In this document: positions 9,856 to 54,704 of the stretch, piece after piece
Position numbering within the stretch: the first letter of the stretch is position 1
How the letters are laid out: every line of letters begins with the position of its first letter
The notes under the pieces: model-generated
Seen by the model: only the letters and a program-made list of their open reading frames with translations
Databases searched by the model: none
Told to the model about the DNA's origin: nothing
Origin: Marsupella aquatica
Taxonomy: Eukaryota; Plantae; Marchantiophyta
DNA: 64,000 nucleotides
Direction of reading: 5' to 3'
NCBI GenBank assembly: GCA_973895155.1
Contig: OZ316891.1
Span: forward strand, 18,873,048-18,937,047
Translations under genes and position numbers: made by a program

Positions 9856-11823
9856 TTGTTGTAAATGGTGGTCAATCTTTTTTGTATTCAACCCTATAGT
9901 AATTAAGTAGACAATTGAAACAATGAATGACAGTTTAATTAAGGATTTGTGCATGGATCAAGAGGTACTTGATGTCATTTAGTGATGCATTGTTATAAAG
10001 ATCTTGCAACAAAACATTTGAAGTTTTTGACTATCCCACCAAATGTTAAAGAGGTTGATCATTTATTAACTTATAATATTTAGATAAAATTGGAATTAAT
10101 CTAATATTTCAGTATTCCTTAAATTGGGGTTATTGGGATCATGTCTCCCTGTTAGGCCTTTTTTGCCCTTGGGCACTGTTATATATAATATGCATTTGAA
10201 TGCTATATTTTGTTTCCCCTTTCAAGTTTGTATACCACTTATTCCCTAGTAGTGTGTCGTACTTAGTCCCCTCCGGATATACTTGTCCCTCATTGGGCAC
10301 CCATGCACACAATCCAAGATTGACAAAAAACCTGCAATACATTTGACGGCTATATTTTGTTCTCCCCTTTCGAGTTTGTAAGCACACATGTGAAGAGTTT
10401 TGGCCAGATTGCACATTATAGTAGTTGATAATTAGTGTACAATGCAACTTTTGTTTGTCACTGGTTATTAACTGATTTCCGTGTGTGTCTAAAGTCACAA
10501 GAGTTGTTACGGTCCTGAACCATTGAACTATTGAACAATCCCATGGTTTTCCTTGTCTTTGGGTCAAATTCAGCCACCCCAACTACAGGGCAGGGTTCCG
10601 CCCTCCATGTGTGTTTCGTCCCCATCCTTGTCTCATTATTTCTTGAGTGCCCTTTCTTACCTTCACAGTAGGGGGGATGGATGTGGAACCCTCTTATTCT
10701 TCAATGTGACTACCCCAGGGTAGTAGGGTCTTTTGCTGTTAACCAAGGTTAAGTCACTTAACCCCCAAAACTGACATTTAGTCCAAATACTGGCAAGGGG
10801 TGATCTTTGAGGAAAAAAGGTGACAATCGAATAGAACCAACTTTGTAAATTTAGTACGTATTCTGGAGTATGGGTCACTTTTGGCTTGCTGAGGTCAGTA
10901 TCTGGCGTAGAATAAGGAACGCTTTGTAAAGGGGACAAACCGGGACGGAACCCAAAGCACAATTACTCGAATGTCAGGAGAACTTCCAAATGCGCAAGAC
11001 AGACATTGATGGAGGACCAATTGGTCTAAACTTGGTGCGTTGGCATTGGAATGATCGATATATCTGATGAGGTCGGTTATCTTGGATCCTGGGGGATGAC
11101 TTATTGTAAAGCCAAAGTGGACCTGTCACACTTGATATCAATCGATTGAATATAAGCAATATCAAATCTAAGCAAAGTCTTGGAAGTGATCTCTCAATTC
11201 TCATCGTCTCATTCTCGTAACGTCCCCTTACTTTCAGCATCTTACAATTTACTCCTTCGACAGAGGCTGGCTGAATAAGAGTGGCTATGGTGTCCGCGAT
11301 TTATGTGTGGGTTCATGTGCTGGAGAGATGGGAGAGTGATATAGAGCACAGAGCCCGTCCAAAACAAACTCCTTACATGGTGCTGCAACCATTATGTACA
11401 GCTGTAACAGATAGAAAATTTCACGCAGACAGAGGATCCAAGACACTAAAAGTCTATTATGGGGAAAGCCTATTAAATCATTAGAGCCGTCTATTACGGA
11501 GTCCTAGCATGAGTCCACTTCCGGATGGAGTACAGCTACTAGATGGAGCGGCTGAGGCTAGCTGATCAAAATTTAGGAAACCCCAAATCGCGTTATATAT
11601 CTTCAAATCTTCGTAGCCAGAACTGTCACCGACTCCTTAACTGTCCTTCACTAGTACGTAGCAACATCGAGGGACTCAGGAGGTGCAGTGCCTAAGAACT
11701 CCATTTTGGAACCTGAGCCAGACGAGCTCTGAACCAGCTCGTAGTAGCTAGTTGCAAGGAATGTCTCTCTTCATCTGCCAAGTCTCTTATTAAGCTGGCC
11801 TCCGTTCAAGGAATCCATTTACC

Positions 11824-14201
11824 ATGCCAGGGTTACGGAAGATTCAGCTCTGTCCTCTCGTTCTTTTGGTTGGATTTGCATTACTCTCTCGGTCATCGGT
11901 ATCTGCTGAGTACAACAAGAACCGCAACGAGACGCACTTCTTATCTTGGGTTGAGAAGGTCCGCGAGGAATACGAAGCCTCTCCTACAGTGGATTCTTCT
12001 CTCACAACGACCAGTGTTACAACCACAACAATAACTGTAGACCTCAACAAGAGCGTGGGCAAAGGCAACTTCCATACAGTGCAGACGGCTATAAATTCGA
12101 TTCCGGATGGAAGCTCTTCTCGCTACCTGGTCAAGATTGCGGCCGGCACCTACAAGTAAGCAAAATGTTGATCATCAGACTTCACGGTGTCTCGTCCGTA
12201 GAGTTTGAACCACGACATTGCGTCCGTGACCGAATGGTGAAGAATGTCCAGTACCGAGTGGTGAAAAATTTCCATGGCTCCAAAGTTAGTATTTAGATTT
12301 AGGAGCTGCCCAAATGCCATAGATCGATGATCTACTTTCGGAGAAGATTGCTTCTCCTGATCGTTTCTTAGTGGAGGAGGTTCCTGATTGTTCCTGATCT
12401 CCCCAAATTTCGTCTGTGATTGCTATGATTGTTGATGTTGGGACTCGTTTCTTGCTGCAGGGAGAAGGTGGACATTTCGGCATCGAAAGGTCCCATTACA
12501 CTCCAGGGCGCTGGCATGAGACTGACGAAAATCACATTCAGTCTGGACAATAAGGAAGCTAACGGAACATTGGCCAGCTCATCAGTCAAAGTATCTAGTG
12601 ACAACTTCATAGCCAAAGACATCGCCTTTGCGGTAAAAATCGAGACTCGCACACTTATCGACGTCCTGAGATAATACCATTAACATTGCACTGTCCGAGG
12701 TCTCGGTATCTTCCCTCGGCCATCCATGTCGTTTCCAATTGGCAGCCCATATCTGGCGCCAGCATCCATGGTGACCTACTGGACTTTAACCTTCATTGTG
12801 GGGCACGCCTCTTATTACAATGGCGTATAGATTCGAGGCGAAGGAGCATGTTACTGATGTCACCGATCAAACCTTATGAATGTTGATGAGTGCATTGCCT
12901 ATTCCAAGGACTGGTTGTAGCTCAATCGTCCATGATAAATGTCAAAACTCTTGCCAGCGGTCGATCTGTAGTGGGAGGTTACTTTAGGACTGTCAGCCGA
13001 ACCCACCGTGGAAGCATTGCTTCTCGCCTGTTTCTAGCTCAAATTGACCAATCTCTTTTGCCCACATTAGTCCCATGCTGAATTCCCCGAATTGCTCTCT
13101 ATTGCCCGGCTTTAGTAATACAGCTAGGTTTCAGGCTTCTGTGTCTACTTGGGGCTAGGTCCAATATGCTCAATTCTCGATAGAAACACTATGACTGATC
13201 TCATGAATAAGGGTCCATGACTCTCGTGGGATACTGCAGAACGGCTCCCCATCACCACCACCCGGAGCTGTCGGCAAGCAAGCTGTGGCTTTCATGATCA
13301 ATGGAGACAAGGGGGCTTTCTGGAGAGTAGCATTCCTGGGATACCAAGACACGCTGTACGACAGGAAGGGACGCCATTACTTCAAAGACTGTTTAATTCG
13401 CGGCACCATTGATTTCATCTTCGGAGACGGCCAATCCTACTACGAGGTGATACTTCACCTTAAGCCCCAGCTTTATGTACGTTGCTGCCAATGAACGTGA
13501 TGCTGGTGCTGGAACGATGGCTGAATTGGATTTCTAATTGTAATTTTCACGGTCGCCCTGCAGACTTGCTACTTGGATTTAGTCTCGACTTCATTTGGAT
13601 CCATAACAGCTCAAAAGAGAGCAGAGAAAAGTGACACCTCTGGTTACTCATTTGTGGACTGCGTCGTGAACGGAACTGGGAACAGTTACTTGGGAAGAGC
13701 GTGGGGGGCATACTCAAGAGTCGTGTTCATCCGAACCTACCTGACAGCCGCTATCCGCCCTGAAGGCTGGTACGACTGGGGTATCCCAGCGAGAGAAAAG
13801 TAAGAACCCTAACCTTTATATCCCGCTTTATATGAATCCCCGAGTCGATTTTGATACAATTCGTCGAATGACAGGTTCTAGAAAATCAAGAATATTTCAT
13901 GAATGAAACTGTATTCAAAACGGGTTTCATTTCGATCAGAAACTTCATTTTAATAGCGCAGGATGCAAACGTGATCATAGTTTGTTCCTGGCCATTCGCA
14001 ACAAGTATTGAGTACTAGGAAGAACTTGCTTCGAAAACGTGCAGGACTGTTTTATATGGAGAGTACGAGTGCTACGGACCAGGATCTCAGAGGGCTGGAC
14101 GTGTGCCTTGGTCATACTACCTCACGGATGCTGTTGTTAAACCTTTCTTGACTACCGATTGGATTCAGGGAAAGCTTTGGCTACCGAAAGGCCCCCAGTA
14201 A
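11824..14201 (+). CDS. PME: Pectin methylesterase (CE8) with signal peptide and no PMEI pro-domain
   Basis: Exons 11824-12155, 12461-12632, 13240-13446, 13564-13799, 14045-14201, all GT-AG and phase-consistent. Motifs GxF(H)TVQx[34 protein letters not shown] and [10 protein letters not shown]. Confidence 0.95.
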
Positions 14202-23407: not shown

Positions 23408-23709
23408 CAACAATTCTATGCAACACAGTCACAATAAGGTACTGTTGCACCAATGATTGCATGGATGCAACGGCCACATGGTCATAACAATACTCACCTA
23501 CAATTCTTAAATTAAGTTTTCCTCAACTTCAAATATGTGTGTCATGCGCAACTATTGTCACACCAACAACAACATGGGTGCTTGGCCTCAACAATATCAA
23601 TCAAACACATGAGCTTGTATTTTAAGCATCTTTTGCAATATATATGTCTTTGCTTTTCATAATGATTATTTATTAATCTCTTTTAAGGCATTCACTCCCA
23701 CTAAACTTG

Positions 23710-25186
23710 ACCCTGAGTTAAATCTACATCAACTTAATGTTGTCCAAGATTAGTGGGCCACCGTACGCTGCCCGTCCCTAAGCCCAATGCAGCCTTCCCG
23801 ACCAAAGCAATTAATGTTGGTTTGTGTTCTGGCACTGAGGATGACGGAACCTTTCTGTCCCCGTCCATCTTTTCAAAATCTGGGCGGGAGAGTGCCTAGC
23901 CAACCCTGCAGTCTCCCACTGTTGACCTTGCACTTGTGCTTGACACACACAAAGGATCGCACGAACATTGCCTGCACTCGAAAGTGGCTGCAAGGGATTT
24001 GTTTGGGTTGTAGTGAGGTTATTCTTCACATTTGCTCCCGCATTTGCTTGATGCAGACATCATTGCGCTTGGGAATCTGTCTCATGTTTATAGTGAACTT
24101 ATTCAGTGAACACCTAGGAGTCTTAAACTAGCACATCAAAACTGCTTGCTCAGGTATGCACTCAACATCTCTATCATGTGGGATACTTGATGTGTTTCCG
24201 CAGCTTTTACGGCTGTAGTTCATGTTCTGCTTGAGTTTTGGATGCAGAGTTTAAGGTTACAGTTTATGTTCTGCAAAGTGCTGGAATGAGACTTTTGAGA
24301 TTTTGGATTTCCTGTAGATAATGCCGCCTCGCTCAGTAGTAGTGCAACCTCAGAAAGGGAAGTCTGCGGTTCCACCAAAGGCAGAATGGATCAAAATTCC
24401 CACAGGCCAAAAATCCTGGCACAAAAATCCACGCCCCAATGGTCTCCTGTGGGACAGATTCTTGGCTCTCATCCAATGCTCATTGATGTTGGCCTGTGGG
24501 AATTTGATCCATTCTGCCTACGGTGGAACCGCAGGCTTCCCTTTCCGAGGTTGCACTACTACTGACGAGCGAGGCGGCATTATCTACAGGAAATCCAAAA
24601 TCTCAAAAGTCCCGTTCCAGCACTTTGCAGAACATAAATTGTAACCTTAAACTCTGTATCCAAAACTCAAGCAGAAGATGAACTACAGCCGTAAAAGCTA
24701 CAAAAACACATAAAGTATCCCACACGATAGAGATGTCGAGTGCATACCTGAGCAGGTAGTTTCGATGTGCTGGTTTTGGACTCCTACTGTAGGTGCTCAC
24801 TGAATAAGTTCACTATAAACATGAGACAGATTCCCAAGCGCAATGATGTCTGCATCAAGCAATGTGAAGAATAACCTCACTACAACCCAAACAAATCCCT
24901 TGCAGCCACTTTCGAGTGCAGGCAATGTTCGTGCGCTCCTTTGTGTGTCAAACTCAAGTGCAAGGTCGACAGTGGGAGACCGCGGGGTTGGCTGGGCACT
25001 CTCCCGCCCAGATTTTGAAAAGATGGACGAGGACGGAAATTAAAGGTTCCGTCATCCTCAGTGCCAGAACACAAACTGACATTCATTGCTTTGGTCGGGC
25101 AGGCTGCATTGGGCTTAGGGACGGGCAGCGTACGGTGGCCCACTAATCTTGGACAACATTAAGTTGATGTAGATTTAACTCAGGGT
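23710..25186. mobile_element. 1477-bp Mutator-like foldback (near-perfect palindrome, ~700-bp arms) with 9-bp TSD
   Basis: accctgagttaaatctacatc... mirrored by ...gatgtagatttaactcagggt; arms meet across an ~80-bp spacer at ~24410-24488; TSD ctaaacttg at 23701-23709 and 25187-25195. Confidence 0.93.
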
Positions 25187-26689
25187 CTAAACTTGCACAC
25201 ACAACAACACAACTTGCATGTAAGGATTAATTGCACATTATTTAGTATTTCACATTTTCAAATTCTCTACAAGAACATCTGACACAAAAAGTGTCATTCC
25301 AGGGTCTTAATTGTAACAAAAACAAGTATGGGGGGTCTAAACCGTAACAACCCTTTTATGGGGGTCCATGAAGTAAACTGTTTTTGCTCAGGTTTCCATC
25401 AGCTAGGCTTAATATGCCTCCCTTTCTTTGTCTTGCTTTGATATCTTCTGTGCAATGCATAGGACTGGGCTATTAATTACTATCATACCATATTAAATAG
25501 TCTAACAGAGTAGTTACCACCACCTACCCTAGACATAACCTCATAGAAAGTAGAGTGTGTTTGTTGACTAATTAGTTTAAAGAGGGTTAATCTGACTTAA
25601 AAAAAAATGCTTCACAACAACAAGGCATATTTATAAGAGAAAGGGGATAAATCATCCCCATAATGAAAGCGTCATTAAAAACTATAATAAAAGGTCCCTC
25701 ATTTTTAAAAAGGTCCATTTATGAATTCGCACGGCCAAGAAAAAGTGGGAAGAATAGAAAACAACGATTAGTCACAAAAAAACTGGAGGAACAAAGAAAA
25801 TGGAAAAATAGGAGGGGATCGAGGAGCAAATGGGGGGATCATCGAAGACTCGTTCCCAAATTGCTCATAGATATTCAACCGCAGGTACTCAACGCAAGTC
25901 AACGTCAGGATTGGTTAATTGTATCGTTTCCACAGATTCCTGGATTCTTGGTAAGCTTGTTTTGGCGAGAAAGAGATTTATTCACAATCACTCACAACTA
26001 TCTATGCAAATAGACATGAAAATTGTATAATAATATTTTTTCCACAGATTCCCAGATTTTTTCCTGCTTGTTTGGGGATGGAAGATTTTTTCACAATCAA
26101 CTACTATAATAAGTAATGCCGCCAAAACTCCATCTTCAGCTTACATTTTTGGAATGGTGGGAACAAACGTCAAATGTCAGAATTTAGAATGTTGGGCTTT
26201 TGGGGCATGAGAGTATGAGAATTTAGAAGGAAGAGTATTGGGTTCATTTTGCTTTTCACTGCATTTTGTGCTGAAGGCAAGAAAAGGGGGGGGGGGGGTG
26301 AAGAAATAGGAAAAAATGAAAATCCCAGCATTGTGCAACTGCACCTTGACCCCACAAAAGGGGAGGGGGGGGGGGGGGGGGGCATGCATCGCCTCTCTTG
26401 CCCTCCCTCTCACTTTCCTCAAAAACATTGCTAGAATACAACAATAACAATTTGTTTTACCTAAATAAAATAAAAATGCAAAAGCTAGTACTAAAGGCGA
26501 TTGTTTTTACATTTTTTGTTACTTTCTCTTTATTTGTGTTACCTTTTGGAGAAACAATTGTCCCAATTTTTTTATTGAATTTTGTTTACATTTCTTTCAT
26601 TGGCTTGCTTGCATTTCATTGTCTTGCCTTATCATCTTCACTCCACCCCAACATCTATGTCTCACCTGGGGTCTCACCGTGATGTTACA

Positions 26690-28250: not shown

Positions 28251-31200
28251 CTAACGGGAATGCTTCTGGACGCGGCTGATCCTTGGTCTTGCAACGACCT
28301 CGAGAGGGTAAAGCTTTTGGGTGGTGAGGTAACCCTCATCTTCAACTAAAGACTTATCATGCTTAGGCAAGGTGCAGTGGAAGTGTTGCAGGTAAGTGGC
28401 GATGAAACTGCAGACCATGGTTGTCGCTTGCAACGCTCCGGCACACCTCCGCCTGCCCAGCCCGAAAGGAATCAGCTCGAAGTTGTTCACTCCCATGTCC
28501 AGTTCTGGAGCATTCATGAATCGGTCCGGAATCCATTCGTCCCATTTTGCCCATCTCGTCTTGTCGTTGTTAATCCCATATATATTGATTAGCACCTGCT
28601 CTTCCAACGACGACAATGACGGTCAGTTCAGCTTCCAGGCTCACGCAAAAAAATGATATTAGTTCGAGTATTGATTATTTGTTAGTTCCAGTTCCATACA
28701 GGTAAATAGTGCACTTGATGAACTTCTCCCACATGGTTGATCACCGTTTCCCATATTTAATGTTAAAGAGATCATGTAGTTCTCGTACTTAAGATTTCTT
28801 TACTTGAACCTTCAATACATATGCATTCATAAAGTGATTAAGATCGGTCAGTTACATCCTTCTCACATGGCGACAATCTGATAATAGGGCATCTCGATAA
28901 GCAGCCATACCAAGACAAGGCTTTCTCATAACTCGCTTATGGGAACTCCCCTGAAGTCCTGGGCTGGGAGACTTTTGGATATCTTAAGGATAGCCAGTAA
29001 GCTCAACACTTAATTAAGAATCCTCACAGTTTTCTTAAGATTTGGGCACAAATCCAGTATTTGAAAATCTGAGATTGACGGTGACTTGACGTGGTGATGG
29101 TTGTTGCATATGAAATGGCGGCTTACCTAGAAGGAATGAAATTAAAGAGCAAATAATTATGTGTTATGAGAGTGAAATGAGACCATAAACCCCTGCCTTC
29201 CAGAGCGGAGCAACGCTGCTTTCCCAAAACCAGAGTTCGAGGTTGAACTTTCCACCATGGCCAAGCTTTGGGACGCCTAATGAAGTTTGATCAGAAACAT
29301 TGTGGACCAACATTTAAATCCTTGAACAAATCTGGTAACTGTAAGAAGTAAGAACAAAACACTAATCGACATCCAGAGTCTCGTGTCCTCCGTTGGTGCG
29401 GACAATTCGGAATCTCGTTATCGCACTTAATCTAACGTGATGAGTTCTATTTGTGTCAAATTTCATGACACGTTCGTGCATTAAGCCTAAAGTCTTGCCT
29501 CGGTCGGCGGGACCCTACTCTGGCTCTTTCAGTGTGAACATCAAATCCAAGACATGATCGATCGAGCCATGATTGACATTGTAGAAGTTTCCTGAGCGCG
29601 AATCCGTTCCATAACGTAACGCGAAAACCCACAACCTACAGGTCAGAATCATTCTGAGAATCGTGGAAAGATAGACGAACCTGCCAGCCCTTTGGGATGT
29701 CGTAGCCCCCAATGGTGATGTCCTCCTCCACCTCGCGCGGTGGCATTAAAACAATCGGACAATGCAATCTCAACGTCTCCTTCAAAATGGCGTCCAGGAA
29801 TGGTAGATTGGGTAAATCGCTTTCCTTCACACTGCGGCTCCCCACGACCTTCTGAATCTCTTGGTACAGCCGATCCTGCGTAAATCAAAGTAACCTGGAT
29901 CAATGAACCTTTCACAACCTTCTTGGTCCTAGGTAGCAACATCATACAGTTGTCAGGAAATCCTAAACAGGCGTCCTGCAGTCAACAGATAAGTCTGGAA
30001 TTCAGCGACTTCCGCAGCCAACGGCCTGCGAATTTTGAATTACAAATGGAACATTTCGAATGGATGGCTGAAATATACACTAAGAGAAATTCCAGAACAA
30101 ATCATTAGATAATTTCACTTGGGTTTAATAGTGATCGTTTAGAATAGCATGAATCAGACTAAATTTTCAGAATTGAAGACGAAACTAATAATGGCTAAAT
30201 CCAAGAAATCAATACAGTTGTGATACAAGGTGGGTGAAACTTAGTAATTAACACTTCTCATCCAACTGCATCGCCAGCTGTACGTGCTATTTAGCTCCCT
30301 AACACGACTGTGCTGGCAACACATGTGCTCCAAGTTCTGTACTAATATTGACGGACACTGACATACATAATAATATGGTTCTACATCTGCGTTGTGGTAA
30401 ATGTCATTAACACTTCAGAAATTCCTCGGAAGGCTACCCCATATTCGGTTCGTTACCCTCCTCAATCTTCATTTGAGTGAATTCAAAATCTCCGCCCCAT
30501 TCCCCATTAAATTCTATATTTACGTCTTAGAAACAGCCAACAGCAATCTGGCATTTCGGACATACCTGAACATCCTGATCCCTCGCAAGCTCATACATGG
30601 CCCATTCTATAGAGACGAGAGAAGTGTCCGAGCCCTCAATGATCGGCTCCCAGGTGAGTAGCTCGAGATTCACACTGTTAAGATCCGTCTCGACTGTCAA
30701 CATATGTTCCAGAAATCCTCCCTTCGGACCCTGCATTCATTGATATCATTCAAGAGCAAAGTTGTTAAGCCCGGACATCCACACGTCGGACCCCATATTG
30801 GTTTTATCATTCAAGAGCACCGTTTGTTAGGTTGCGTCATATCTTTTGCTGCCTGTTTCCTAAACAATTAGAACTGGAAATCTAAGTAGCTCTAGACCAG
30901 AATCTCGAGCAAGCCTCGCGATAAATTAGTGTTTTTAGAGAAAGAGGAAAGTCACCCAGACATCTACATAAGAGCTAAAACATTAAATCCATGAAAACTT
31001 CTAGAGTTCTGTTAATAGAGCTAGCTACTGTTAATACCTTTGACAAAAAACAGTCCTGGCCTGTCTCAATGGTATCGCCCTCGATAGAGTCTTGACGTGT
31101 AACGGCAGTCAAAGCCGGAGAGATTCAACCTTCGACGTACCGCACCTTCTACGTTTTAAACTAGGTATCTAGAGTATTTATTGGAAGATATTGCGTTCAG

Positions 31201-33869
31201 TGGTAAATAATATCGTTCTCGAATGATACTGCTGGGAAGCTAATATAACATTAGATCAAGTCCTGCAGCTATAGCAGGCATGCACATACACCCCACATGG
31301 ATAGATTCTCTGGATCAAGGTGAATCAAGCACAGTAGAAAAGCCGACAGCATCGCTACTGCTCACTCGGACAGCAAGCTTGTGTGGGGAGCAACAGTAGC
31401 GGCTGCTCCGTGTGTACAAACCTGCAACTCGAGATGCCGGCGTTTCTGTTCGATGAGGGCCCGGACCACGAAGGATCGCACTTTTGCAACGTCCACTACT
31501 TTCTTCTCGAAGGCGGGGTTTGGGAGCCAGTTAAGCAACGGTAGAAAATCCCGCCAGTCCACAGTGATGACAGACTTCATGGGATTCACGACCAGATGAT
31601 CAAAAATGTCCCATAGCTCCAAGTTTCCCAACTCCGGCACGTACACACTCTCCGGAACGTAACCCAGGATCTGAAGACAGTTTACGTTACAACGAGCTAA
31701 CAAGAATCAGATGCTTGTCACAACAAACCACAAGAAGGCATCATGTGCATACTATGGTGTCGGCGTAGTTAACATCGAGGAAAGACAAGGAAGTCCTAGT
31801 ATGAGCTAGCAGTTTGGTGAGCTTCATTGGAAGGTACAGGAACTAGGCGGGGAACTAAGACGGCGGATCTGCCAGAGGGCCGGGGAGCACGTTCAAACAC
31901 AGTCTGCAGGGGGTGGAAGGGAAAGTGCTAAAAAATCACTAATAGACGATGTTAAACTGTGCTATTAATGATCAAAACATCAAACTTTCCTTGTTATCGC
32001 TAAAATGCTCAGTTTCCCGCTCCGGGGCAGGCCAAGGTCAGACTGAGAAGTGAAGACAGTCTTGAACAGAACGGGGGTCTAAATGTTTAAAGAGGCAATA
32101 GGAATGATATCAGATACCAATGAAACCTTTTGGCACCCGGGTAGAAAGGAAAAACAGGATTGAAGTAATATATGGTCATGATCAGTCAATTGTAGCAACA
32201 CAAGGCATGAATGAATGATAGCCTGAGATAGAGAACCTGGTGCATCACGAAGTGGAATAAGTAGTGCTTGATAGATTCTCTGACGTTCACCAGGCCAGAT
32301 GATCCGTCTAGTTTCAGAAAGACTCCATCTACAACACTCTCCAGCAATTGCTCGCGAAGGAAACTCATCGATTTCTGCGCAGCAAGTCAACCAATTGCAG
32401 AGATTTTGAACGAAACTCGACGATTGCCTAGATGACGCAGCTACATTATGTACTTACGTTTTCTCTCATGACATGCACTGAATTCAGACCCGACCTACCC
32501 ACAAACTAACCAATTCATGTTCATGACAAATTTATTCCAATGTAAACCTTCCAAGGTACGCTCTTGCTACTTCAACAAGATCAGCACGAGCTCTGGGAGG
32601 TATTTTAACGAGCGAGAAGAAACTTGTCTAGATACTAGATACCAGAAGAGCACAAACCTGGGGAGCGCTTGCCAGAACTCGGCTTGAAAGCAGCTTCTTC
32701 AGCTTGCGGTACTCATCGCCATAATCACTTAGTGCTACGAGATTCTTGTCCTTAGACCAAACTTTCAGATTACTCAGAAGTTTCCTCTTGGACAATTTTT
32801 CGAACTTCGTCACGGCAGCCTTTACATTCATCCATCATGCCACCAAAATTCAGAGGGGTTCATCGAGATAATTCTTAATTCTAAAACTTCCAAGTTTTGA
32901 GCAAATAAGAGGGGAATATTATGCCGTTATTGATCTGCTTTGACTACGTGACTACTAGCTTCATATGGCTTATGATTCATTCTAATTCTAACTTTTTGTG
33001 ACAATTTAACAATTGTTTACCTCCTTAACAAGCTCTGGAGAGGTAATGACGACGTATTTGAAGGGACCGAGGTTGAGCTGAAAAATGGGCCCAAATTTCT
33101 CGGAGAGGTCGGTTATTGTTCGGTGAGGCTTCTGCGATTTCAGCTGCAGCAAGTTTCCAATAAGTGGCAACCCACCCGGCACACCTGTACATCATATTTG
33201 ACGCACAGTGGAGAAAATCGTTTTAGGTGAACGTTTTGCAAGAAAACGCTCACTGTAGAAACAGAAAATAAGTAAATAAATTGCCGATGAACATGCGTTA
33301 GTAATCTCAATTAAAGTAGTAACGAAATTTTCAAAATCGTTCCCTCAAGATCACTCGGAGATTTGTCTAAATTTTAACACTTTCCCTGGAGCCGACTATC
33401 CATTACCGCCCAAGGAGAACGTGCGAAGCCGAGGGATCGAGTCTTCGGTATTCAGGAACAGGGAAAGAAACGGCTATATGAAGACAAAGATCGGAAGATT
33501 CATGACATCAACCAATTTTGGGCTGGACGTATCAGCTAGTGGTCATTCACGTACTGCATAATAAATCATTTACCCCAGGCTGCTATGGACCTAGCTATCG
33601 ACCTACTTTGAACAGATGAACACTTGCCACAACCGACCTGGAGGGTAATGCTTTCGTGTCTTGGAGTATCGACTTCTGAAGAGAGTGGTGAAGCCGCCCA
33701 CCACAAGCACGAGGACCAAGAAGAGAACCGTCAACAAAGAATTCTGCCGCAGCTGCTCTAGCAGCGTCAGAACAATTTGATTCATGGAGCTCTGAGAAGA
33801 CTGATCTGCAGAAGCCGCCAAGTCTCTCGCAGCCTCTCCGTAAATCTGTTCGGAATGGGGCTGTGCCAT
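28251..33869 (-). CDS. CYP701: Cytochrome P450 of the CYP701 family (ent-kaurene oxidase-like)
   Basis: Exons 33869(or 33785)-33638, 33184-33021, 32819-32658, 32374-32237, 31670-31422, 30730-30566, 29875-29681, 28595-28251, all GT-AG. TM anchor and PPG hinge; CYP701-type VTKF..LSKRKL..DKNLVALSDY, VDWRDF and WEPIIEGSDT; KETLR; PFGLGRRRCAGALQA heme motif. Confidence 0.92.
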
Positions 33870-34332
33870 GTCGAGCTGATTGATACGGTCCAAAGCTGAG
33901 CTCTTGATTGATGCGGCCTCACCGACGGGGTATGTTCACAGCGCGTAACGTACATCAGAGTCCTTTGAAGCTCGTCAGCCTGAGCTGGGATGCATCGTCG
34001 ACTAACTTGACATGCTGGGAAAGCCAATCTTTGACAATTCAGGGACCGAGGCCGAAAAGGTGCTTTCGAGCAGCTTCAATTGAGCATTGGATCTCGGCAG
34101 GAGCAGCAGTACCTCTATACAGTCAAGTCATCGTCTAGATCGATCTGCTGCAAGGAGAATATTCTTAACCCTCAATATAAAGGGTATGCCTACATGCTAG
34201 CTGCTTTTATCTACAGTGGCGGTCAACTGATCAAAAATTCCTACTCCACACCTTTCAACGTACACATCGAGCGAATACAAAACTACATTACTTGAGCGGC
34301 TTTTTCAAGGCCCAAAGATTGCCAAGCTCGGT

Positions 34333-34560
34333 TGGCTACAGTAGATCCGAAACCAGACAGGACTAAAGTGCGTCCTGAATCGAATCGAAGGAAAGCGCTC
34401 ATTCGAAGGCTAACAATTGATGCTTCCCTTGTTCACCGGGGGCTACCGACAGTGGCTACAGTAGATCCCAAACAAGACAGGACTAAAGTGTGTACTGAAT
34501 CGAAGGAAAATGCTCATTCGAAGGCTGATAATCGATACTTTCCTTGTCAACGGGGGCTAC
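34333..34560. repeat. ~120-bp tandem duplication upstream of CYP701
   Basis: tggctacagtagatcc...gactaaagtg...gctcattcgaaggct...cgggggctac occurs twice. Confidence 0.75.
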
Positions 34561-34758
34561 AAAAGAAGGGCTAATGAAGCAAGTGTTAGAACTTTCAACA
34601 GCATTGCATTGGACAGGCTGGGAATAGAACTTAGGACGGACCTGCTAGGAATAGAACATAGGACAACCTGCTAGGAATAGGCATAGAACTTAGGACTAGA
34701 ACAACCTGCTAGGAATAGGAATAGAACTTAGGACCTCCTCTGTAATGCGCGATCCTTA

Positions 34759-35094
34759 GGGCTGTCTTGCATGTGCAAGAGTCCTCAAAAAAGCGGCCCT
34801 TACCAGCCCACAAATGTCGGGAAAAAGTGCAAACCAAATCTACCAGGAGTGGGGAGCAGATACACGGGAAAAACGTCCAGAAGTCTGGGTCAAAGACGAC
34901 GTGTTATGTCTACCATTTTGTTTTATTATGATTTGAAGGTTGGGGACCTCAAGGGCCGGAAATTTTCCGGCCCTTGCCCTTGCAACTCCACCAAAGATGG
35001 CGTCAAGACTGCCGAACTGTCGCTTGATTAAAGAAAGGCCACGGGTTCATTTCAGGGCCGGAAACCAAAAGACCTTGTACATGCAAGACGGCCC
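34759..35094. mobile_element. PIF/Harbinger (Tourist-like) MITE
   Basis: TIR gggctgtcttgcatgtgcaag / cttgtacatgcaagacggccc; TTA TSD on both sides; inserted into the tRNA-like part of the TRIM LTR. Confidence 0.85.
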
Positions 35095-35572
35095 TTAATG
35101 CTCTACCATTGAGGGCCCATCATTCCTACATCCATTATCAGTGGAATGATAGTAATGCTTATAGTAATGCTGATAGCAATGCTTACCACTGAGCTACACC
35201 CTAAACCCTAAAGCTACAAGCCCATCATGCCTCGATCCCTTTCCTTTCCAACACCCTGAGTGTGATTCATTTCCAACACCCTCAGCCACACATTTCCAAC
35301 ACCCTACATTTCCAACACCCTCCCTTGAGCCACACTCGCTTCAAGATACATTCATATTTTGAGGGCCATCATGCCTACATCTATTGTCAGTTGAGTGTGG
35401 TTCATTTCCAACATTCTTTCTTGAGCCACATTCCCAACACCCTTTGAGTGTGGTTCATTTCCAACATTCTTTCTTGAGCCACATTCCCAACACCCTCTCT
35501 TGACAGAGCCACATTGGCTTCAAGAGACATTCCTATTTTGGCTCTCATACCATGTTGGAACTTTCAATAGCA

Positions 35573-35647
35573 TGGACTCACTGGCTAGGAATTGAAACTA
35601 GGATCTCCCATGTACATCATAGTGCTCTACCACTGAGCTACAGGCCC
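35573..35647 (-). other. tRNA-derived (pseudo-tRNA) segment with Pol III A and B boxes inside the TRIM LTR
   Basis: GGGCCTGTAGCTCAGTGGTAGAGCAC...ATCCTAGTTTCAATTCCTAG...GTCCA; D-arm and T-arm recognisable, acceptor and anticodon stems degenerate. Confidence 0.75.
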
Positions 35648-35946
35648 ATCATGTCTGCATCCATTACCAGTTCGAGTGTGACTCATTTCCAATTATAGAA
35701 ACAATGAGACGCAAACACAATACATACATGCACCTTCTTGGGAGGGAGTTCTTCCACAGCTTCAAACAAATTTAGAACATCTTTTTTAAATCCCATAACC
35801 CCGCCCGTAACAGAAGTTACACATCATTGAGCATTTTTTAATCTAACTTGTTACCTGTATACTATGAAAAACTGTCTCATGAACCTTGTCAATACATACT
35901 TAGCTGACTGTACAATAAACCTAATCAACCTTTAATTGTGACCTTT

Positions 35947-36300
35947 AGTGGTGGACCTAGTCACCCAGCGTCTCCCCCCCCAATCCCAGTACTCATGCCT
36001 ATTGTAAGTACCCTTGGTGCCCGAATGCCTACACGGAACTCCTTGAGCAAGCCACTTGATGCCCCCGACACCGTTTGTGGGAACTCTCATTTGAAGCAGC
36101 ACTTGCTCCTTAACCTGATAGTCACTCAACGATCTTCACTGCCTGCACAGGTAACCAAACACCTCGATAAGTAACTTGTTATGATCCGAGATCCCCAAGA
36201 CCATTGTCTTGACTCAACCTGAACAGTTGTTAGTAAGTAGGTTAGCAAACAGATTCTCCCATGCCCGCATGGCCTTGCCATATTAAGCCAAAGCCAGAGC
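35947..36300 (-). mobile_element. Diverged 3' fragment of the Gypsy-like LTR family
   Basis: The reverse complement resembles 42521-42739 and ends ggtccaccact. Confidence 0.65.
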
Positions 36301-36303
36301 TAA

Positions 36304-36410
36304 CCTCAGGGGTCTCACTATATGGATCCCTCCCCATCACCTGTGACTTTTTTTAGGCCTCGAACCCCCTAAAATTTAAGAAGAATTTTTTTTAACCCCT
36401 ATAAGGTCTA
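36304..36410. mobile_element. MITE family 1 fragment
   Basis: ctcaggggtctcactatatggat..ccccatcacctg matches the reverse complement of 4320-4393. Confidence 0.7.
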
Positions 36411-36427
36411 AATCTAGGTCTAGAGAT

Positions 36428-36846
36428 CCAGCGCCCTCACCAATCCTAGCACCCTCACCAATCCCACCGCCCTCACCAATCCCAACGCCCTCACCAATCC
36501 CAGCACCCACGCCTAAGTGCCCCTAGGGCCCAAATGCCTCCACGGAATACCTCGAGCAAGCAACCTAGTGCCCCGTGCACCACTATCGGCCCCTCCCATA
36601 TGAAGCCGCACTTGCTCTCCAACATGACCGCTACTCAATGTTCAATCCTCACAGTCTGCACAAGCAACCAAGCATCTCGGTAAGTAACCCTTCAGGACCT
36701 AGATCTCCCAAGTCTAGCATCCTAACTCAAACTCAACAAACATTGACAAGTAGTTCAGCAATAGGTCCTCCCGATGCCATAAGCCAAAACCTGAACCAAC
36801 GCCCACTATTTGTCCAGAACAACTCCTTCCTTGGGCGCAGCCCGGG
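36428..36846 (-). mobile_element. 3' part of an interrupted minus-strand LTR (LTR-B)
   Basis: Reverse complement of 38000-38174 plus 42521-42710; includes 4 tandem 19-bp gccctcaccaatcc units. Confidence 0.85.
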
Positions 36847-38174
36847 TTCCTAGTCGCAAAACTCGACTACCTTAACACTTAGCTCCAACATCGCTGACTT
36901 TGACGCCGAGCTCCCTTATGGTCCAAGCCCGGATAGGCCATCCGGGGAGGACTGAGCATGGGGAGACTTGTGGGCAATGGGAAGTGGCGCTAGCGAAGGC
37001 AAGGCGCCAAGCTGGTGTCACGCACTAGGGACTTAGACTAGCTGAGAGCTAATCAGGTTGAGGGGAAAAAGGGTTGGGCTTGAGGTCGACCGTCCGGAGC
37101 TTCGGACGGACTTTGAGTTTTGAGGGCTTGAGTGAGAGCTCCTCTTCAAGGGCCCAGGGCCAATGGAGTTGATGCCATGGACAACGGACGCTTGGGGAAC
37201 AAGTTATGGCCCAATCCGGGTTTGGCCGGTCGGGGGCCCCTAGCGGCAATGTGATCTGAGGGCCTAAACATGAGCACCGGGTCGGTCCAATCACAACGGG
37301 CTATAGCACTCCGCTTGCGAAAGCCTAACTACGAAGTTATGGGCGTTGCCAGTTGGTGGCACGCCCAAACATGCAGGATAGGGTCCGGGTTGGGGACCAA
37401 AAGTTTGGGGACCAAAGCTGGTCTGAGGGTGGCAGGTCTTAGGGTTTAGGGTTAAGGGTCTCCAGAAGTATATATATATATGAGGGAAGTGGTGTCTCCG
37501 TGGGGGCTAAGGGCGAACCGAAGTTGTGAGCCACGACGGTCGCGACACTAAGGAAAAATGTCAAACGGAAACGACAATAACTTCCCAACGAGAAGTCCGT
37601 TGGGAGACTTCTTGGGTCCGTTGGAAATCTCTCAAGGAGGGCTACATCCTCCTGAGCTTAGCTGAGTCTGGGGGCACTGTAGGTTCTTGAGGTTTGCGGG
37701 TGCTATCTTGCCCGCATGCCAAATCCTGCCGAAACAACAGCCAAGTCGCGTTGAGTCTCTCAAGGGAACTTGCATTGGGGAGGCAAGGCCAAGTAGGTAT
37801 GGAGGTTGATTTCCAAGGACACTTGGCTCCTAGACCATCAATGGGGCGAGAACCAAGAGTTGGTTGCTAGAGTCGAGGTCATTCTGGTCCCGCCGTGTAG
37901 GGACAAGCTTGGGACAAGCTTTAGGACAAGCTACGCTATTTGGGCCATGAGCATGTCCTGGGGGTAGGGCGGTCAGTTGGTGATGGATAGGTACGAGGGG
38001 AAACTCAGGCTGCGCCCAAGGAAGGAGTTGTTCTGGACAAACACTGGGCGTGGGTTTTGGTTCCGGCTTATGGCATCAGGAGGACCTATCGTTGACCTAC
38101 TTGTCAATGTCTATTGAGCTTGAGTTAGGATGCTAGACTTGGGAGATCTAGATCCTGAAGGGTACTTACCGAGG

Positions 38175-42741: not shown

Positions 42742-42753
42742 TGGTATCAGAGC
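42742..42753 (+). promoter_or_regulatory. Primer binding site for tRNA-iMet
   Basis: TGGTATCAGAGC directly after the LTR end. Confidence 0.9.
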
Positions 42754-44491: not shown

Positions 44492-47400
44492 CTAGTTGTT
44501 CTCATTTTCCAAATCTTCCACAACAACTACATTTGGTTGTTCTTGGACTATGGATCTGGATCGTGGAATGTAAGGCATTACAATGGACCACTCAGGATCA
44601 TCTGGATAAGGGAGATAGAATGCCTGCTCAAGATTATGAGGAAATGCAAAAGGATCTGAGGCCCTCCAATTTGAGCTGATGACAGCCCCTGTCTTCAGTC
44701 GTGTGAAGCCGCAAGCATCCTCTTCACATGTTCGATTGTGGCCAACAAGATTCATCCGAAACCATTTGCACTTCAGCACCACCTCTTCCAATGTTGTATG
44801 CGCATGGTATTTTACAACAAGGATCTCCTCTATCTTTCCATAGTGAGCTATAGTAGAACGGATGGGATTTGTGTCAGATCTGCTACTTACAAAATCCTGG
44901 GTGAACCAACCCATCACCCCACAATCTTGTGTAGCTGCCCTCTTGTCATCAAGTCATTCCACACGAAAGTGTCTCCCCTTGGACCACATGGCAGTCCTGG
45001 TTGTAACTGTAAGTAGAGGTCCATGAACCAAGGTGCGCAACTTATCAGTCACCATTGGGAAGTGTGATACACTCTCCCCAGTAGCCACCAAGGCATCCAC
45101 TTCTAACAACTTCCCCTTCATGTACATGTGAAATTTGGGAAATAAGCGTGGTCGTCGATTATTGTGCTTATCCTCCTCATAAAATGTGGTCCACTCCCCA
45201 ACAATCTCTGGAGAGTTATACAACATGAATGCAGTGAGTTTAGTGTGCTCACTAGGGTCAAGAAGCCGTTCTCCCTTTGCACCTGTCAAACGGTCATCCT
45301 CATAGTCTGCTTCTCTTGATGCCTCATCTATCCACCCCCTTGGAGCATTTGAATCAAGTGTAGCAATAATGTTTGTACAATAAAACATGCTCTCTGCTCC
45401 AAGATGATGCTATGCAATGCTACCTTCCACCCTTGCGCGATTTGAAACATAGGACTTCATCACTCCCATGTACCGCTCTACCCAGTACATCCAACGACAA
45501 TGTACAGGGCCTGCAATACCAACCTCACGCACTAGATGTAGTAGAAAATGAACCTGACCATCAAAAAATGAAGGAGGAAGGGCCCTTTCAAGTTTGCACA
45601 CAACCTCCACTCCAAACACCTCCATTGCTGCAACCTCATCCTCGTTCACCTCCTTTTGACACACCCATCTCAACAACTTACCCAACGACCAAAGGGCATC
45701 ACGAAGATCCTCACTACCCAATCCAATAATAGCAATTGGAATAACATGTTGCAATAAGCGATGATAATCATGGGTCTTCAAGAAAGCTGGCCATTTTGGA
45801 GAGTCAAGTCCACCAAATGCCTTGCGAAGATTGGCACTATACCCTGTAGGAAATCGCATAGACCCTATGCGTTTGCGAAACTCGGTCCGCTCACCTCGTG
45901 TCAAAACCCAAGGAGGATGAATAGTAAGGGGGGCATTATCGGGATCCATAGATGGCCAAAAACCATGAGGGCCATGCATCCCCATCTCTTCACAACTCTC
46001 TCTCCAGTTGTTGTCTTTCTCTCCATATAGGTGGCGAATCAAGGACCTCCCAACATTTCCCTCAATGTGCATAGGGTCAAATAAATGGTTAAGTGGCATC
46101 TCAGCCCAATAAGGCAGTTGTGACAATGCAGACAAACAAGTCATGCCACACCGGGCATATTGCAATGGGTCATCTGGATTAGATACTCTCTCCCATACCT
46201 CTTTCCAATATGCACGATCTTTTGGAATAGGTTGTGGTCGTCTATCTGGTTGGCCATCCTCAGTGTCATATAAAAAGGGGTCTCTCCTCCAATCATGGTC
46301 TGGAGGGAGGTACTTGGTGTGACCAATATACACTATCTTCCTCAAGGTCTTTGACTTTGGCCGCGCTATTCCTTCCAAATCAGGTCCATAAGTTGGGCAA
46401 GCTCGATATCCTGATGTGGTCAGGCCAGAAATATATCCAAACCCTGCATATAAATATATATCCCATGCATAAGTAAATAAGTTTATTAAAAGATATATGT
46501 GCTTCTAGCTAACTCAATACATAACAAAGTATGCTAGGTACGGTTGCCTAGCTATGGGAAGGGATAATTTAACAAAGATTCATACCTGGAAGATCATGTA
46601 TGGTCCACATAAGAATGGCCTTCAACTTAAATTCTCGACGTAAGCCCCCCGTTTGCACTCGACCATCATAGCAATCCACACCACTCCAAAGCTTTTGTAG
46701 CTCCTCAATCAATGGTTGCAAGTACACATCAATTTTTTCACTTGCTTAGGACCAGGGATAATCATGGAAAGGAGAAAATGACCCTTCTTCATGGACATCC
46801 ATGGAGGGATGTTGTAATTAGTAAGGACCACTGGCCATAGTGAATATGGTTGGGCCTTACCTGCTAGTGCAAATGGGCTGATGCCATCCGCTGCCAATCC
46901 TAGGCGAACATGACGTGGGTCAGTTTGGAACTCACCCCATCTCTCCTCCACAAACTTGTTTGCAGGGGAGTCAACCATCATGCGCATGGTGGGTGGTTGT
47001 GAACTCATATCTGAGCGATTTTGGGAATGCCAAACCATATACTCAGCCAACTCAGCACATCTATATTGGTGGCGCAAACGAGGTATAAGAGGAAAGTACC
47101 TCATGACCTTCTGAGGAACTTTTCCCGTCAACATGTCCTCACAATACCTCGGCTTCTCACATGTAGGACATGACGTTGCATCTTTATAAGTGCCTCTAAA
47201 CAGAACGCAATCATTCACGCAAGCATGTATGACTTCGTACTGCAGACCTATGGACTTCAACACCTTCTTTGCCTCTTTCCAAGAGTCTGGCAAGTTGTTT
47301 CCTTCTGGCAAGATACAATCATGCAATGTCCGAAAGAGATCATCAAGAAGTAGGTTGCTTGCTCCATGTCTTTGCTACAAGTTCAACAAAAACATTATTG

Positions 47401-47758
47401 CTGAAAGACGAGACAAGCGTGATCCATCAAATATTCGAGTTTGCGCATGTTGACGTGCTTCCTCCCACTGTTTGGAGGCTGAACTCCTTGAACCTTCTTG
47501 ATGTGGAAGTGGGACCTCAATGTTCTCCCCATCAGCCATGTCATGATCACCATCCTCTATGTCATAGAATTGGTGCATCAAGTCATCCATGGCCCTATCT
47601 TCATCAACTCTTGATTGGGAGGCATCTGGTTCCTGCTCTGGAACATCCGGATCGCCATCTGGTGGTAGAGAGGCATGTCGCCAATCTTCCATGGCCTGCA
47701 CAAGGTGTTGGCGCATAGCTCGTGGTAACACCCCAACATCCGGCTCAACATATGCATT
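44492..47758 (-). pseudogene. CACTA TnpD-type transposase (Transposase_21 / DUF4218 / DUF4216 type), disrupted
   Basis: Motifs IHACVNDC, YFPLIPRL, LGLAADG, WPVVLTNYNIPPW, FDPMHIEGN, KTHDYH, PPSFFD, WMYWVER and HYGKIEEI. Intron 46586-46444; in-frame stops at 47375, 45410 and 44954; frameshift ~46735. Confidence 0.93.
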
Positions 47759-47867
47759 CTATCATACAACGCACAAAACAGATATATACGTTTGAGTTAG
47801 CCCATGGGTTCCTAAAAAAACTACAATATTCTTATATTACTTCAAAAATGGGGAATACACATATGTG

Positions 47868-49171
47868 CTAAGTGTGGCCAGATCGAAAGCCCATCGTGGG
47901 TGCGTTCCATTCATAGTCACAAAACAACTCATCACCCGCCCTAATGGTCCGTATGGCTACTGTCATAACATGATCATCCATATGTGTGACATAGTAAGGC
48001 GGAGTGGGTGGGCCAAAAATCTGAGCCCACTCTACATTAGGCTGGAGTCCACTCCCTCTACCATGTGTACTATTGATGTACCCAGCTATGTTATCTGAAT
48101 GGACAAGGTCCCCATCAATCATCCTACAATGCCAAGGCCTCCTTAGGACCTCATCTGGGTCTGAGTCCATCTGCAATGCATATACCCCCCAAGCTGGATG
48201 TTGGCGCAAGAGGATGTTCCAACTCTCGGATGTATACACAGGCCCAATGTAAGGGAAAAGGTGTTCCCCATCATAGCCATGACGCCAAGGCTTTGGAGGG
48301 ACCTCAATGTCCTCCAAAGCAAATAAGCCTAACCCAACCTCCCCGCCAAGGGTCGATGCCTTCACTATCCATTGTCGACCCCATATATGTACAGGGATGT
48401 CAATGGCTAGGCCACGAGGAATCACAAAACTCTCAGGGTCAAAATCCTTGAAGACACTGATTGCCTTTCCCGTCACATATGACAAGCCCAACCTCCCTTC
48501 AACTTCTATGTACTCCTCCCCTGGTGGAGGCATAACACTCCTTCTAAAGTGCTCATGGGATGGGTCTGTGTCTAGAACTACATGCTGTTGTCGACGTCTA
48601 TGAGAACGTGGTCTTGTGCGTAGAACCCTAGTAGGGGGCGGTGCATCATCCCTACCATGCCCCAACTCTACCACTATGGGTTCATGAACAACATCTGCCT
48701 GAACATGTGCGGGGGTACATGATTTCTCGGGGTCTTCAACTGATGATGCAAGCAACTGTCTAGCACCAGCTAGGAATGCATCATGCCATAGTTGACTAGA
48801 GACCAATGGAGGACGGGCCCTACAACGCACCTATTCAATCATAAACAAACAAAAATTAATACCTGTCTCCTAAAAGGTCTCAAACCAGCCAACTATTATG
48901 ATAGTGTATCATATATAGCGGAGTTCATGTCAAGAAATACCTGGCGAGCTGAATATCCCGGTAAATCACCCTCATGTCGACCATAGTTTTCGATGTGTTC
49001 AATGGACTGCCATGCTTGACGAACCACCAGTCCTTTACATCTAAGACACCAGCATGGAATAGGGCCTAATGGAGGGGGTGCTCGAGGCTGTTGAGGGGGA
49101 GGAGGAATGTCCCCCTCAGAGGAAGACAAGTCAGAGTCGGAATCTGTATCCAAACTCTCAGAAGTCGACAT
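47868..49171 (-). CDS. CACTA-borne SET-domain (lysine methyltransferase-like) protein fused to a transposase-associated zinc-finger exon
   Basis: Exon 49171-48941 (CWCLRC..HIENYG) spliced in phase 0 to exon 48830-47868. SET motifs GLGLFALEDI, YIGPVY, AGYINS..PNVEW and AIRTIRAGDELFCDY; open frame. Confidence 0.8.
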
Positions 49172-54610: not shown

Positions 54611-54704
54611 AAAAGGTCCGTGCAGGCGTTCGGACACCAGGGGTTCTTAGGCGTGGGTGCTGGGATTGGTGAGGGCGCTAGGTGGCAAGGTTCACCACTT
54701 TCCC

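What the first reader, a model, noticed from the sequence alone, without database searches (positions are those of the whole stretch)
34584..35692. TRIM-like retroelement with a tRNA cassette in its LTR, a possible tRNA analogue of Cassandra
Seen on the minus strand: a short LTR ending TTCCAACA followed directly by a tRNA-iMet PBS (one mismatch), about 50 bp of internal DNA, a PPT and a new TGTTGG LTR start. The middle of the LTR is a sense-oriented tRNA-like sequence with an A box (TAGCTCAGTGG) and a B box (GTTTCAATTCC). Established: Cassandra TRIMs carry 5S rRNA Pol III promoters in their LTRs. Inference: this may be an independent solution using a tRNA type-2 promoter. It could easily be mis-annotated as a SINE or tRNA pseudogene.
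Basis: partly seen in the sequence, partly recalled or inferred. Interest (0 to 1): 0.75.

Follow-up and report, generated by a model that had tools for sequence, protein, structure and literature searches.

The report
Decayed tRNA-bearing mini-retrotransposon in a liverwort
This is a decayed copy of a small, gene-less, multi-copy LTR retrotransposon whose end repeats carry a tRNA look-alike that likely serves as its promoter; the design was published in 2024 as Helenus, and this copy likely lies in a liverwort, which would be a new host group but not a new kind of element.

Summary
The anatomy is real. On the minus strand lie a ~140-bp LTR with a tRNA-like unit (A and B boxes), a directly adjoining iMet PBS, 48 bp of internal DNA with a PPT, and a new LTR start. 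Public contigs show a dispersed multi-copy family whose majority letters restore the B box and PBS. The tRNA part sits in PPT-preceded as well as PBS-followed LTRs, with no poly-A tail in the rows shown. This locus is an old, scrambled three-LTR tandem relic broken by a deletion and a MITE, and has no TSD. The design is published: Helenus (Kojima 2024, PMC10886601), with one plant family, in Selaginella. Neighbouring genes point to a liverwort host; four searches found no liverwort record. An inverted repeat flanks the PPT/LTR junction, as in Copia elements; by eye it is also in 22 of 24 fungal Helenus consensuses read, which supports a Copia helper. Pol III transcription and family TSDs are untested. 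The scan found Helenus before on other DNA (17 notes, at least 8 genomes). Verdict: new member of a known kind.

The parts
35553..35694 (-). LTR 1 (142 bp), the only whole LTR; first two bases decayed (AA for TG), ends TTCCAACA
   Evidence: contigs that end at 35553 with varied flanks (8 in X1, 6 in X3) and contigs joining a TGTTGG start to this LTR
35674..35686 (-). right arm of the inverted repeat that flanks the PPT/LTR junction
   Evidence: 11 of 12 Watson-Crick pairs with the left arm, reached by 0 of 2000 shuffles
35573..35647 (-). tRNA-like unit: A box 35640-35630, B box 35598-35588; D arm and T arm kept, anticodon arm decayed
   Evidence: Rfam tRNA 24.2 bits, E 0.089 over 35641-35584; most contig depth restores the G of GGTTC at 35597; outer limits inferred from the acceptor-like strands
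35541..35552 (-). [quoted passage not shown]
   Evidence: 18 contigs in X1 and 13 in X3 carry the matching letter at 35546
35493..35540 (-). internal domain 1 with polypurine tract (48 bp; left IR arm decayed)
35362..35492 (-). 5' part of LTR 2 with an exact 53-bp tandem duplication across the PPT/LTR junction; breaks off at the start of the tRNA unit
   Evidence: (D4); 42 of 52 ungapped columns identical to the 5' part of LTR 1
35318..35361 (-). internal domain 2 with left IR arm (35338-35326) and PPT; the tRNA unit, LTR 3' end and PBS before it are missing
   Evidence: 39 of 44 ungapped columns identical to internal domain 1; high contig depth
35095..35317 (-). 5' half of LTR 3, scrambled: four TGTTGG starts, two A-box copies (35196-35186 whole; one near 35112-35102 shortened), a short telomere-like run at 35211-35199
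34759..35094 (.). 336-bp MITE with ~21-bp terminal inverted repeats and a TAA duplication, inserted between the A box and B box of LTR 3; high-copy, not part of the TRIM
   Evidence: I3; flanks; depth
34584..34758 (-). 3' half of LTR 3: tandem copies of the B-box/T-arm stretch and a decayed LTR end (TTCTAACA); no PBS follows
   Evidence: D3, D10, D14; 40 of 54 ungapped columns identical to the 3' end of LTR 1

Best explanation
The locus is a decayed, tandemly arranged copy of a multi-copy, non-coding mini LTR retrotransposon of the Helenus type (unit about 340 bp, inferred from contigs), which is likely transcribed by RNA polymerase III from the tRNA-derived A/B boxes in its LTR and likely moved by the proteins of an autonomous Copia element. 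Inferred cycle: Pol III starts at the tRNA-like unit in the 5' LTR and reads through the LTR end, PBS, internal domain, PPT and 3' LTR; there is no run of four T between the A box and the PPT. Host tRNA-iMet primes at the PBS, the PPT primes the second strand, and a Copia integrase inserts the copy. The tRNA part acts as a promoter, not as a tRNA. Shown: anatomy, multi-copy family, cassette in both LTR positions, inverted repeat at the PPT. Inferred: Pol III use (about 65%), Copia helper (about 75%), liverwort host (about 90%). This copy is likely dead: LTR-internal-LTR-internal-LTR, with the middle LTR cut by a deletion and the last broken by local duplications and a MITE.
For: Anatomy. Family: 283 contigs of run X1 and 174 of X3 lie on 35290-35720; summed depth at the LTR 3' end is 2146-2760 against 38 in the flank (X1) and 1156-1502 against 12 (X3), a rough sign of many copies and not a copy number. 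Majority letters restore the B box (35597: 3311 of 3993 depth in X1, 1382 of 1544 in X3) and the PBS (35546: 1119 of 1326, 432 of 519). Among the 15 of 38 joint rows shown, 6 contigs in X1 and 5 in X3 join PPT plus LTR start to the tRNA part, and 7 and 4 join the PPT side of the internal domain to the PBS. Contigs that end at the LTR end go on into unlike flanks (agreement 0.47-0.51). No T4 run from A box to PPT. The inverted repeat matches the position described for Copia elements (PMC2829016). Same layout in Helenus-1_SMo. Host.
Against: No TSD at this locus, and LTR 1 lacks its TG. No TSD could be read for any family copy. The A-box bins are 3-5 times deeper than the LTR end (13854 vs 2760 in X1; 4788 vs 1502 in X3), so real tRNA genes, other subfamilies or a SINE share that stretch; these were not separated. 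The PBS-side joints have only 24-32 letters on their shorter side at 80% likeness, which the tool flags as weak. The tRNA match is below Rfam's gathering score, and this copy's tRNA part folds no better than shuffles (z 0.71). The IR hairpins are not unusually stable either (z -1.0 and -1.6 in the window, -0.2 in L103). The top bit score in the pectinesterase search is an angiosperm protein, though at lower identity (58%). No helper element was identified.
Confidence: 0.87

Rival explanations
1. A tRNA-derived SINE or tRNA pseudogene inserted into an ordinary TRIM LTR at this locus or in a minority of copies, and the family is an ordinary Pol II TRIM.
For: The A-box stretch is 3-5 times deeper than the LTR ends, so tRNA-like sequence exists apart from these LTR ends. 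Kojima proposes SINE insertion as the remote origin of Helenus.
Against: Contigs that leave the alignment after the T arm continue with a variant of the LTR 3' end, not a poly-A tail (13 in X1, 10 in X3 at 35583). PPT-preceded LTRs carry the tRNA part too. LTR 3 at this locus also has A-box and B-box remains. No TSD or A tail around the tRNA part in the window.
Confidence: 0.05
2. The element is a Helenus-type TRIM, but the tRNA part is a passenger: transcription is by Pol II from the LTR 5' part or by read-through, and the boxes persist only because the family is young.
For: No Helenus has been shown to use Pol III (PMC10886601 section 4.1). By eye, most published Helenus LTRs read have a T run just after the tRNA part, which could stop Pol III before the PBS.
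Against: None of the 13 listed letter differences falls in the A box, and the B-box difference restores the consensus, while the anticodon arm, the LTR 5' part and the 3' end vary. The 52-bp 5' part leaves little room for a Pol II promoter (inference). This family has no T4 run in the window copy.
Confidence: 0.25
3. A chance mosaic of unrelated repeats (a tRNA fragment, LTR scraps of a larger element and a MITE), or an assembly artefact.
For: The locus is scrambled, has no TSD, and lies among other high-copy repeats. No listed contig spans the whole stretch.
Against: Exact single-copy contigs cover both outer junctions (35624-35936 and 34490-34720, 0 differences) and internal junctions (35317-35420, 35467-35565). 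Orderly LTR-PBS-internal-PPT-LTR joints occur in runs of two studies. The IR pairs within the family and not across families.
Confidence: 0.03

Closest known systems
Helenus-1_SMo of Selaginella moellendorffii (Helenus, TRIMp3; Kojima 2024, PMC10886601)
   Same: Non-coding TRIM; LTR 120 bp and internal 85 bp there, about 140 and 55-60 bp here. By eye against the published consensus: TGTT..G start, TTCCAACA end, same A box, GGTTC B box, iMet-type PBS directly after the LTR, inverted repeat around the PPT.
   Different: Host is likely a liverwort, not a lycophyte. The LTR 5' part, anticodon arm, internal domain and IR letters differ; five short motifs from this family, the iMet PBS and L103 found no exact match in the supplement (line breaks can hide matches). 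The Selaginella LTR has a T4 run near its end and this copy has none. A 5-bp TSD is reported there and could not be shown here.
Fungal Helenus (Pucciniales families such as LTR-1_PTrit; same paper)
   Same: tRNA-like unit in the 3' half of the LTR; proposed Copia dependence. By eye, an IR of 8 bp or more around the PPT/LTR junction in 22 of the 24 families with both parts in supplement part 1.
   Different: Most use an anticodon-loop primer rather than the iMet 3' end. By eye they carry a T run after the tRNA part, and their LTRs are mostly longer.
Cassandra TRIMs (5S rRNA-bearing)
   Same: TRIM with a Pol III gene-derived unit in each LTR, an iMet PBS, and short tandem arrays of about three LTRs (PMC7215508 passages). 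The only TRIMp3 with validated Pol III transcripts.
   Different: 5S type-1 promoter instead of tRNA type-2 boxes; 565-860 bp against about 340 bp; reported from vascular plants. No 5S match here.
Copia elements with a PPT-flanking inverted repeat (Sireviruses and about half of classic Copia; Bousios 2010, PMC2829016)
   Same: Left arm borders the PPT and right arm lies 10-20 bp inside the 3' LTR; the paper gives an average of 18 bp for classic Copia.
   Different: Those elements encode gag-pol; this one is non-coding with a 12-13 bp arm.

Membership tests
Helenus (TRIMp3) | [quoted passage not shown] | tested here: met
   A box intact; B box GTTTC in this copy, GGTTC in 83-90% of contig depth (definition)
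Helenus (TRIMp3) | Two LTRs, both with the tRNA unit, around a short internal domain | tested here: met
   Family level: joints put the tRNA part behind a PPT in 6 contigs (X1) and 5 (X3), and before a PBS in 18 and 13. At this locus only LTR 1 is whole; LTR 3 keeps box remains.
Helenus (TRIMp3) | PBS directly after the 5' LTR and PPT before the 3' LTR | tested here: met
Helenus (TRIMp3) | Short and non-coding (published range 311-1263 bp) | tested here: met
   Unit about 340 bp from the letters between joints; no Pfam match for the two frames of 90 aa or more nearest the locus
Helenus (TRIMp3) | Dispersed multi-copy family | tested here: met
   283 and 174 contigs laid; varied flanks beyond the LTR end
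Helenus (TRIMp3) | 5-bp target site duplication (plant and fungal families) | tested here: inconclusive
   Absent at this decayed locus (TCTAT vs CTTGC; no exact 4-6-mer over 18 boundary positions). Other copies' two flanks are not printed by the tool, and no genome is held.
Helenus (TRIMp3) | tRNA unit is not a functional tRNA | tested here: met
   No ARAGORN call; Rfam score below gathering, anticodon arm not aligned. Tested for this copy only.
Helenus (TRIMp3) | Transcription by RNA polymerase III from the boxes (expected, not validated for any Helenus) | not testable with these tools
   needs 5' RACE or Pol III ChIP
Cassandra | 5S rRNA-derived sequence in the LTR | tested here: not met
   Rfam scan of 33000-37500 gives no 5S match up to E 10
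tRNA-derived SINE | tRNA head at the 5' end, A-rich or simple-repeat tail, own TSD | tested here: not met
   The tRNA unit lies inside an LTR and runs on into the LTR end and PBS. A separate SINE that shares the A box is not excluded.
Tourist-like MITE (34759-35094) | Short TIRs, TAA/TTA duplication, high copy, non-coding (definition recalled) | tested here: met

The most novel reading that the evidence does not exclude
The liverwort family and Selaginella Helenus-1_SMo descend from one Copia-dependent, Pol III-driven TRIM lineage in the ancestor of land plants. That would make plant Helenus older than Cassandra and lost or overlooked in most plants. The PPT-flanking inverted repeat, kept in position with changed letters in liverwort, lycophyte and fungal families, would be the signal by which these minis are handled by their Copia helper. 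This family's lack of a T-run terminator would make it the simplest system in which to prove Pol III transcription of a Helenus.
Probability: 0.3. Interest if true: 0.55.

Novelty: new member of a known kind. Interest (0 to 1): 0.3.

Why it matters
It would extend Helenus from one lycophyte to liverworts, so tRNA-promoter TRIMs may be an old and under-annotated part of seed-free plant genomes that inflates tRNA-pseudogene and SINE counts. The inverted repeat at the PPT, not mentioned in the Helenus paper's main text (0 hits for 'inverted' and 'hairpin'), is a cheap sequence test of which helper a mini-element depends on. Liverworts are tractable, so the open question of Pol III transcription of Helenus could be tested there. 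The design itself is published, the scan has met it many times, and this copy is a decayed relic.

Tried and rejected
No whole genome is held, so the genome-wide BLAST and TSD survey could not be run. Run search: no RNA holder listed; this says nothing about expression. Metagenome scan for A box-B box-iMet PBS: 0 matches. L103 is a separate Helenus-like family: its LTR 5' part is no closer to the window's than shuffles are (465 of 1000 reach the score), and its 3' end was selected by the pattern. Parent tRNA not assignable: the best A-box matches are tRNA-Lys, Gly and His genes in metagenome loci, and the anticodon arm is decayed. Folding energies of the tRNA part and IR regions are not distinct from shuffles. 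TSD search at the locus was negative. Literature: no liverwort or moss Helenus in four searches and none on a PPT hairpin in TRIMs in one (two papers listed; PMC7215508 passages describe LTR-LTR super-hairpins instead). Repbase and subscription journals were not searchable, and bioRxiv supplements were not seen. The original Cassandra paper (PMC2311327) is not held, so statements on Cassandra come from PMC10886601 and PMC7215508. Earlier scan notes by sequence gave only an unrelated bacterial tRNA array; none for liverwort or this genome. Comparisons with published consensuses were made by eye, not computed.

Full report
OBSERVATION. On the minus strand the window reads: LTR 35694-35553 (first two bases AA for TG; end TTCCAACA), PBS 35552-35541 (11 of 12 matches to the iMet PBS 12-mer, a motif I recalled), 48 bp internal DNA ending in a purine tract, then TGTTGG at 35492. 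The A box is at 35640-35630 and the B box at 35598-35588. The Rfam tRNA model covers 35641-35584 at 24.2 bits (E 0.089; gathering 29) with D and T arms paired. ARAGORN finds no tRNA in the window or in this region at relaxed thresholds. Only 2 sites in the window are within 2 mismatches of the PBS motif, and the composite pattern appears in 0 of 200 simulated windows (pattern written after the fact).

THE LOCUS IS A RELIC. After internal domain 1 comes the 5' part of a second LTR with an exact 53-bp duplication. It breaks off where the tRNA unit starts and joins a second internal domain (35361-35318; 39 of 44 ungapped columns identical to the first). A third LTR follows in pieces: four TGTTGG starts, two A-box copies, a 336-bp MITE with a TAA duplication (35094-34759) between A box and B box, tandem copies of the B-box stretch, and a decayed end at 34584. 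LTR pieces are 74-81% alike. No TSD flanks the whole. I read this as LTR-internal-LTR-internal-LTR, the short tandem form described for Cassandra (PMC7215508, passages) and noted for one Helenus family.

THE FAMILY. No genome is held, so I laid contigs of public runs that hold the stretch: 4 of the 5 listed on 34000-36400 and 2 of them on 35290-35720. The best holders may be the window's own source. In one search, 283 contigs (X1) and 174 (X3) were laid. Summed depth at the LTR 3' end is about 55-125 times that of the flank; the tool warns that this is no copy number. The majority letter restores GGTTC at 35597 (3311 of 3993; 1382 of 1544), which also completes a five-pair T stem, and restores the PBS at 35546 (1119 of 1326; 432 of 519). 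None of the 13 listed differences lies in the A box. Of 38 joint rows 15 are shown. In them 6 contigs (X1) and 5 (X3) join PPT and LTR start to the tRNA part, and 7 and 4 join the PPT side of the internal domain to the PBS, the latter with only 24-32 letters on the shorter side. Two joints share one depth in each run (35, 99, 15), which suggests single contigs with LTR-PBS-internal-PPT-LTR (inference). The letters between joints give an LTR of about 140 bp and an internal domain of 54-58 bp, so a unit of about 340 bp. Eight and six contigs stop at exactly 35553 and run into unlike flanks. Contigs that leave the alignment after the T arm (13 and 10) continue with a variant LTR end, not poly-A. 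Only 12 of 192 loose-end rows are shown. Against a clean picture: the A-box bins are 3-5 times deeper than the LTR end, so tRNA genes, other subfamilies or a SINE share that stretch.

INVERTED REPEAT. The 12-13 bases before the PPT pair with bases about 10-21 of the LTR: 11 of 12 pairs, reached by 0 of 2000 shuffles; the decayed internal domain 1 gives 9 of 12 (103 of 2000). Loose ends at 35307 show the right arm in 9 and 7 contigs. L103, a complete 141+81+141-bp Helenus-like unit from a metagenome (LTRs 134 of 141 identical, no TSD), has the same geometry with other letters (11 of 12; 2 of 2000). Cross-family controls give 8 of 12 (710 and 346 of 2000). By eye the IR is in Helenus-1_SMo and in 22 of the 24 fungal families with both parts in supplement part 1, and is not evident in the first six wasp families with both parts in part 8; I read 2 of 11 parts whole. 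The paper assigns fungal Helenus to Copia and animal Helenus to Gypsy. An IR in this position is described for Sireviruses and about half of classic Copia (PMC2829016, passages). Folding energies are not distinct from shuffles, so a hairpin function is inferred only.

HOST. A pectinesterase exon in the window is 80% and 77% identical to Riccia proteins, 76% and 75% to Marchantia, 61-68% to the named moss and fern proteins; the top bit score is an angiosperm protein at 58% (17 hits). A SET-domain frame has Calypogeia fissa as best hit (58%) and Riccia as the other named species (11 hits). The host is therefore likely a liverwort.

MECHANISM. Inferred from anatomy and from the general LTR cycle as set out in PMC10886601: Pol III starts at the tRNA unit of the 5' LTR, the RNA runs through PBS, internal domain, PPT and 3' LTR, host tRNA-iMet primes reverse transcription, and a Copia helper supplies RT and integrase. 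This copy has no T4 run from A box to PPT, and the two majority changes listed near the LTR end create none; one loose-end consensus (X1, 35583) does show a T4 run, so some copies may have one. By eye most published Helenus LTRs that I read have a T run right after the tRNA part, which would demand leaky termination. No step of transcription or transposition was shown here.

COMPARISON. Kojima 2024 (PMC10886601; I read parts 1-4 of 6 of the text, from abstract to Discussion, and supplement passages plus parts 1 and 8) defines Helenus as TRIMs with tRNA-derived sequence in the LTRs, found in fungi, animals and one plant, Selaginella moellendorffii. This element meets every defining feature I could test; the TSD is inconclusive and Pol III use is untestable here. 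It fails the tests for Cassandra (no 5S) and for a SINE. Four searches found no liverwort or moss record; a 2026 sugar beet preprint mentions Helenus once in passing (passages); PMC10946416, PMC7111516 and PMC6934838 were seen as listings only. Repbase could not be checked. The scan's earlier notes hold 17 Helenus findings in at least 8 other genomes, none for a liverwort; I had reached the Helenus reading before opening them.

VERDICT. Real; a new, likely liverwort, family of a published kind; this copy is decayed. Interest 0.3.

Noticed in passing
L103 (927 bp), minus strand, unit at 301-663 in locus coordinates: Complete Helenus-like TRIM in a metagenome contig: LTRs 141 bp (134 of 141 identical), internal 81 bp, PBS starting TGGTAGC (by eye like some fungal families), PPT-flanking IR, no TSD. 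Different family; host unknown.
   Followed up: partly
window 34759-35094: High-copy 336-bp MITE with TAA duplication and an internal 27-bp palindrome at 34950-34976.
   Followed up: partly
window 34490-34720 and 35624-35936: Runs X1 and X2 hold a second version of both outer junctions with 10 to 23 other letters and gaps: the insertion may be shared by two divergent alleles or paralogues, which would make it old.
   Followed up: no
window 42742-42753 (+), with related stretches at 36481-36638 and 54617-54689: A perfect iMet PBS at the end of another repeat whose last letters are CTTA rather than CA; probably the LTR end of a larger retroelement family.
   Followed up: no
window 44495-48830 (-): CACTA-type transposase pieces (Transposase_21, DUF4218, DUF4216) next to a 319-aa SET-domain frame whose named relatives are from liverworts; possibly a SET gene carried by the transposon.
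   Followed up: partly
window 5888-9293 (+): Three consecutive long frames, two matching DUF7869; looks like a broken transposon gene.
   Followed up: no
window 23709-25187: Long fold-back: nested inverted arms of 68-229 bp, 91-99% complementary.
   Followed up: no
window 11794-13800 (+) and 28254-28622 (-): Host gene exons: a pectinesterase and a cytochrome P450.
   Followed up: partly
window 35199-35211, 7921-7938, 37439-37452: Short plant telomere-like TTTAGGG runs, one inside the scrambled LTR 3; may mark break repair.
   Followed up: no
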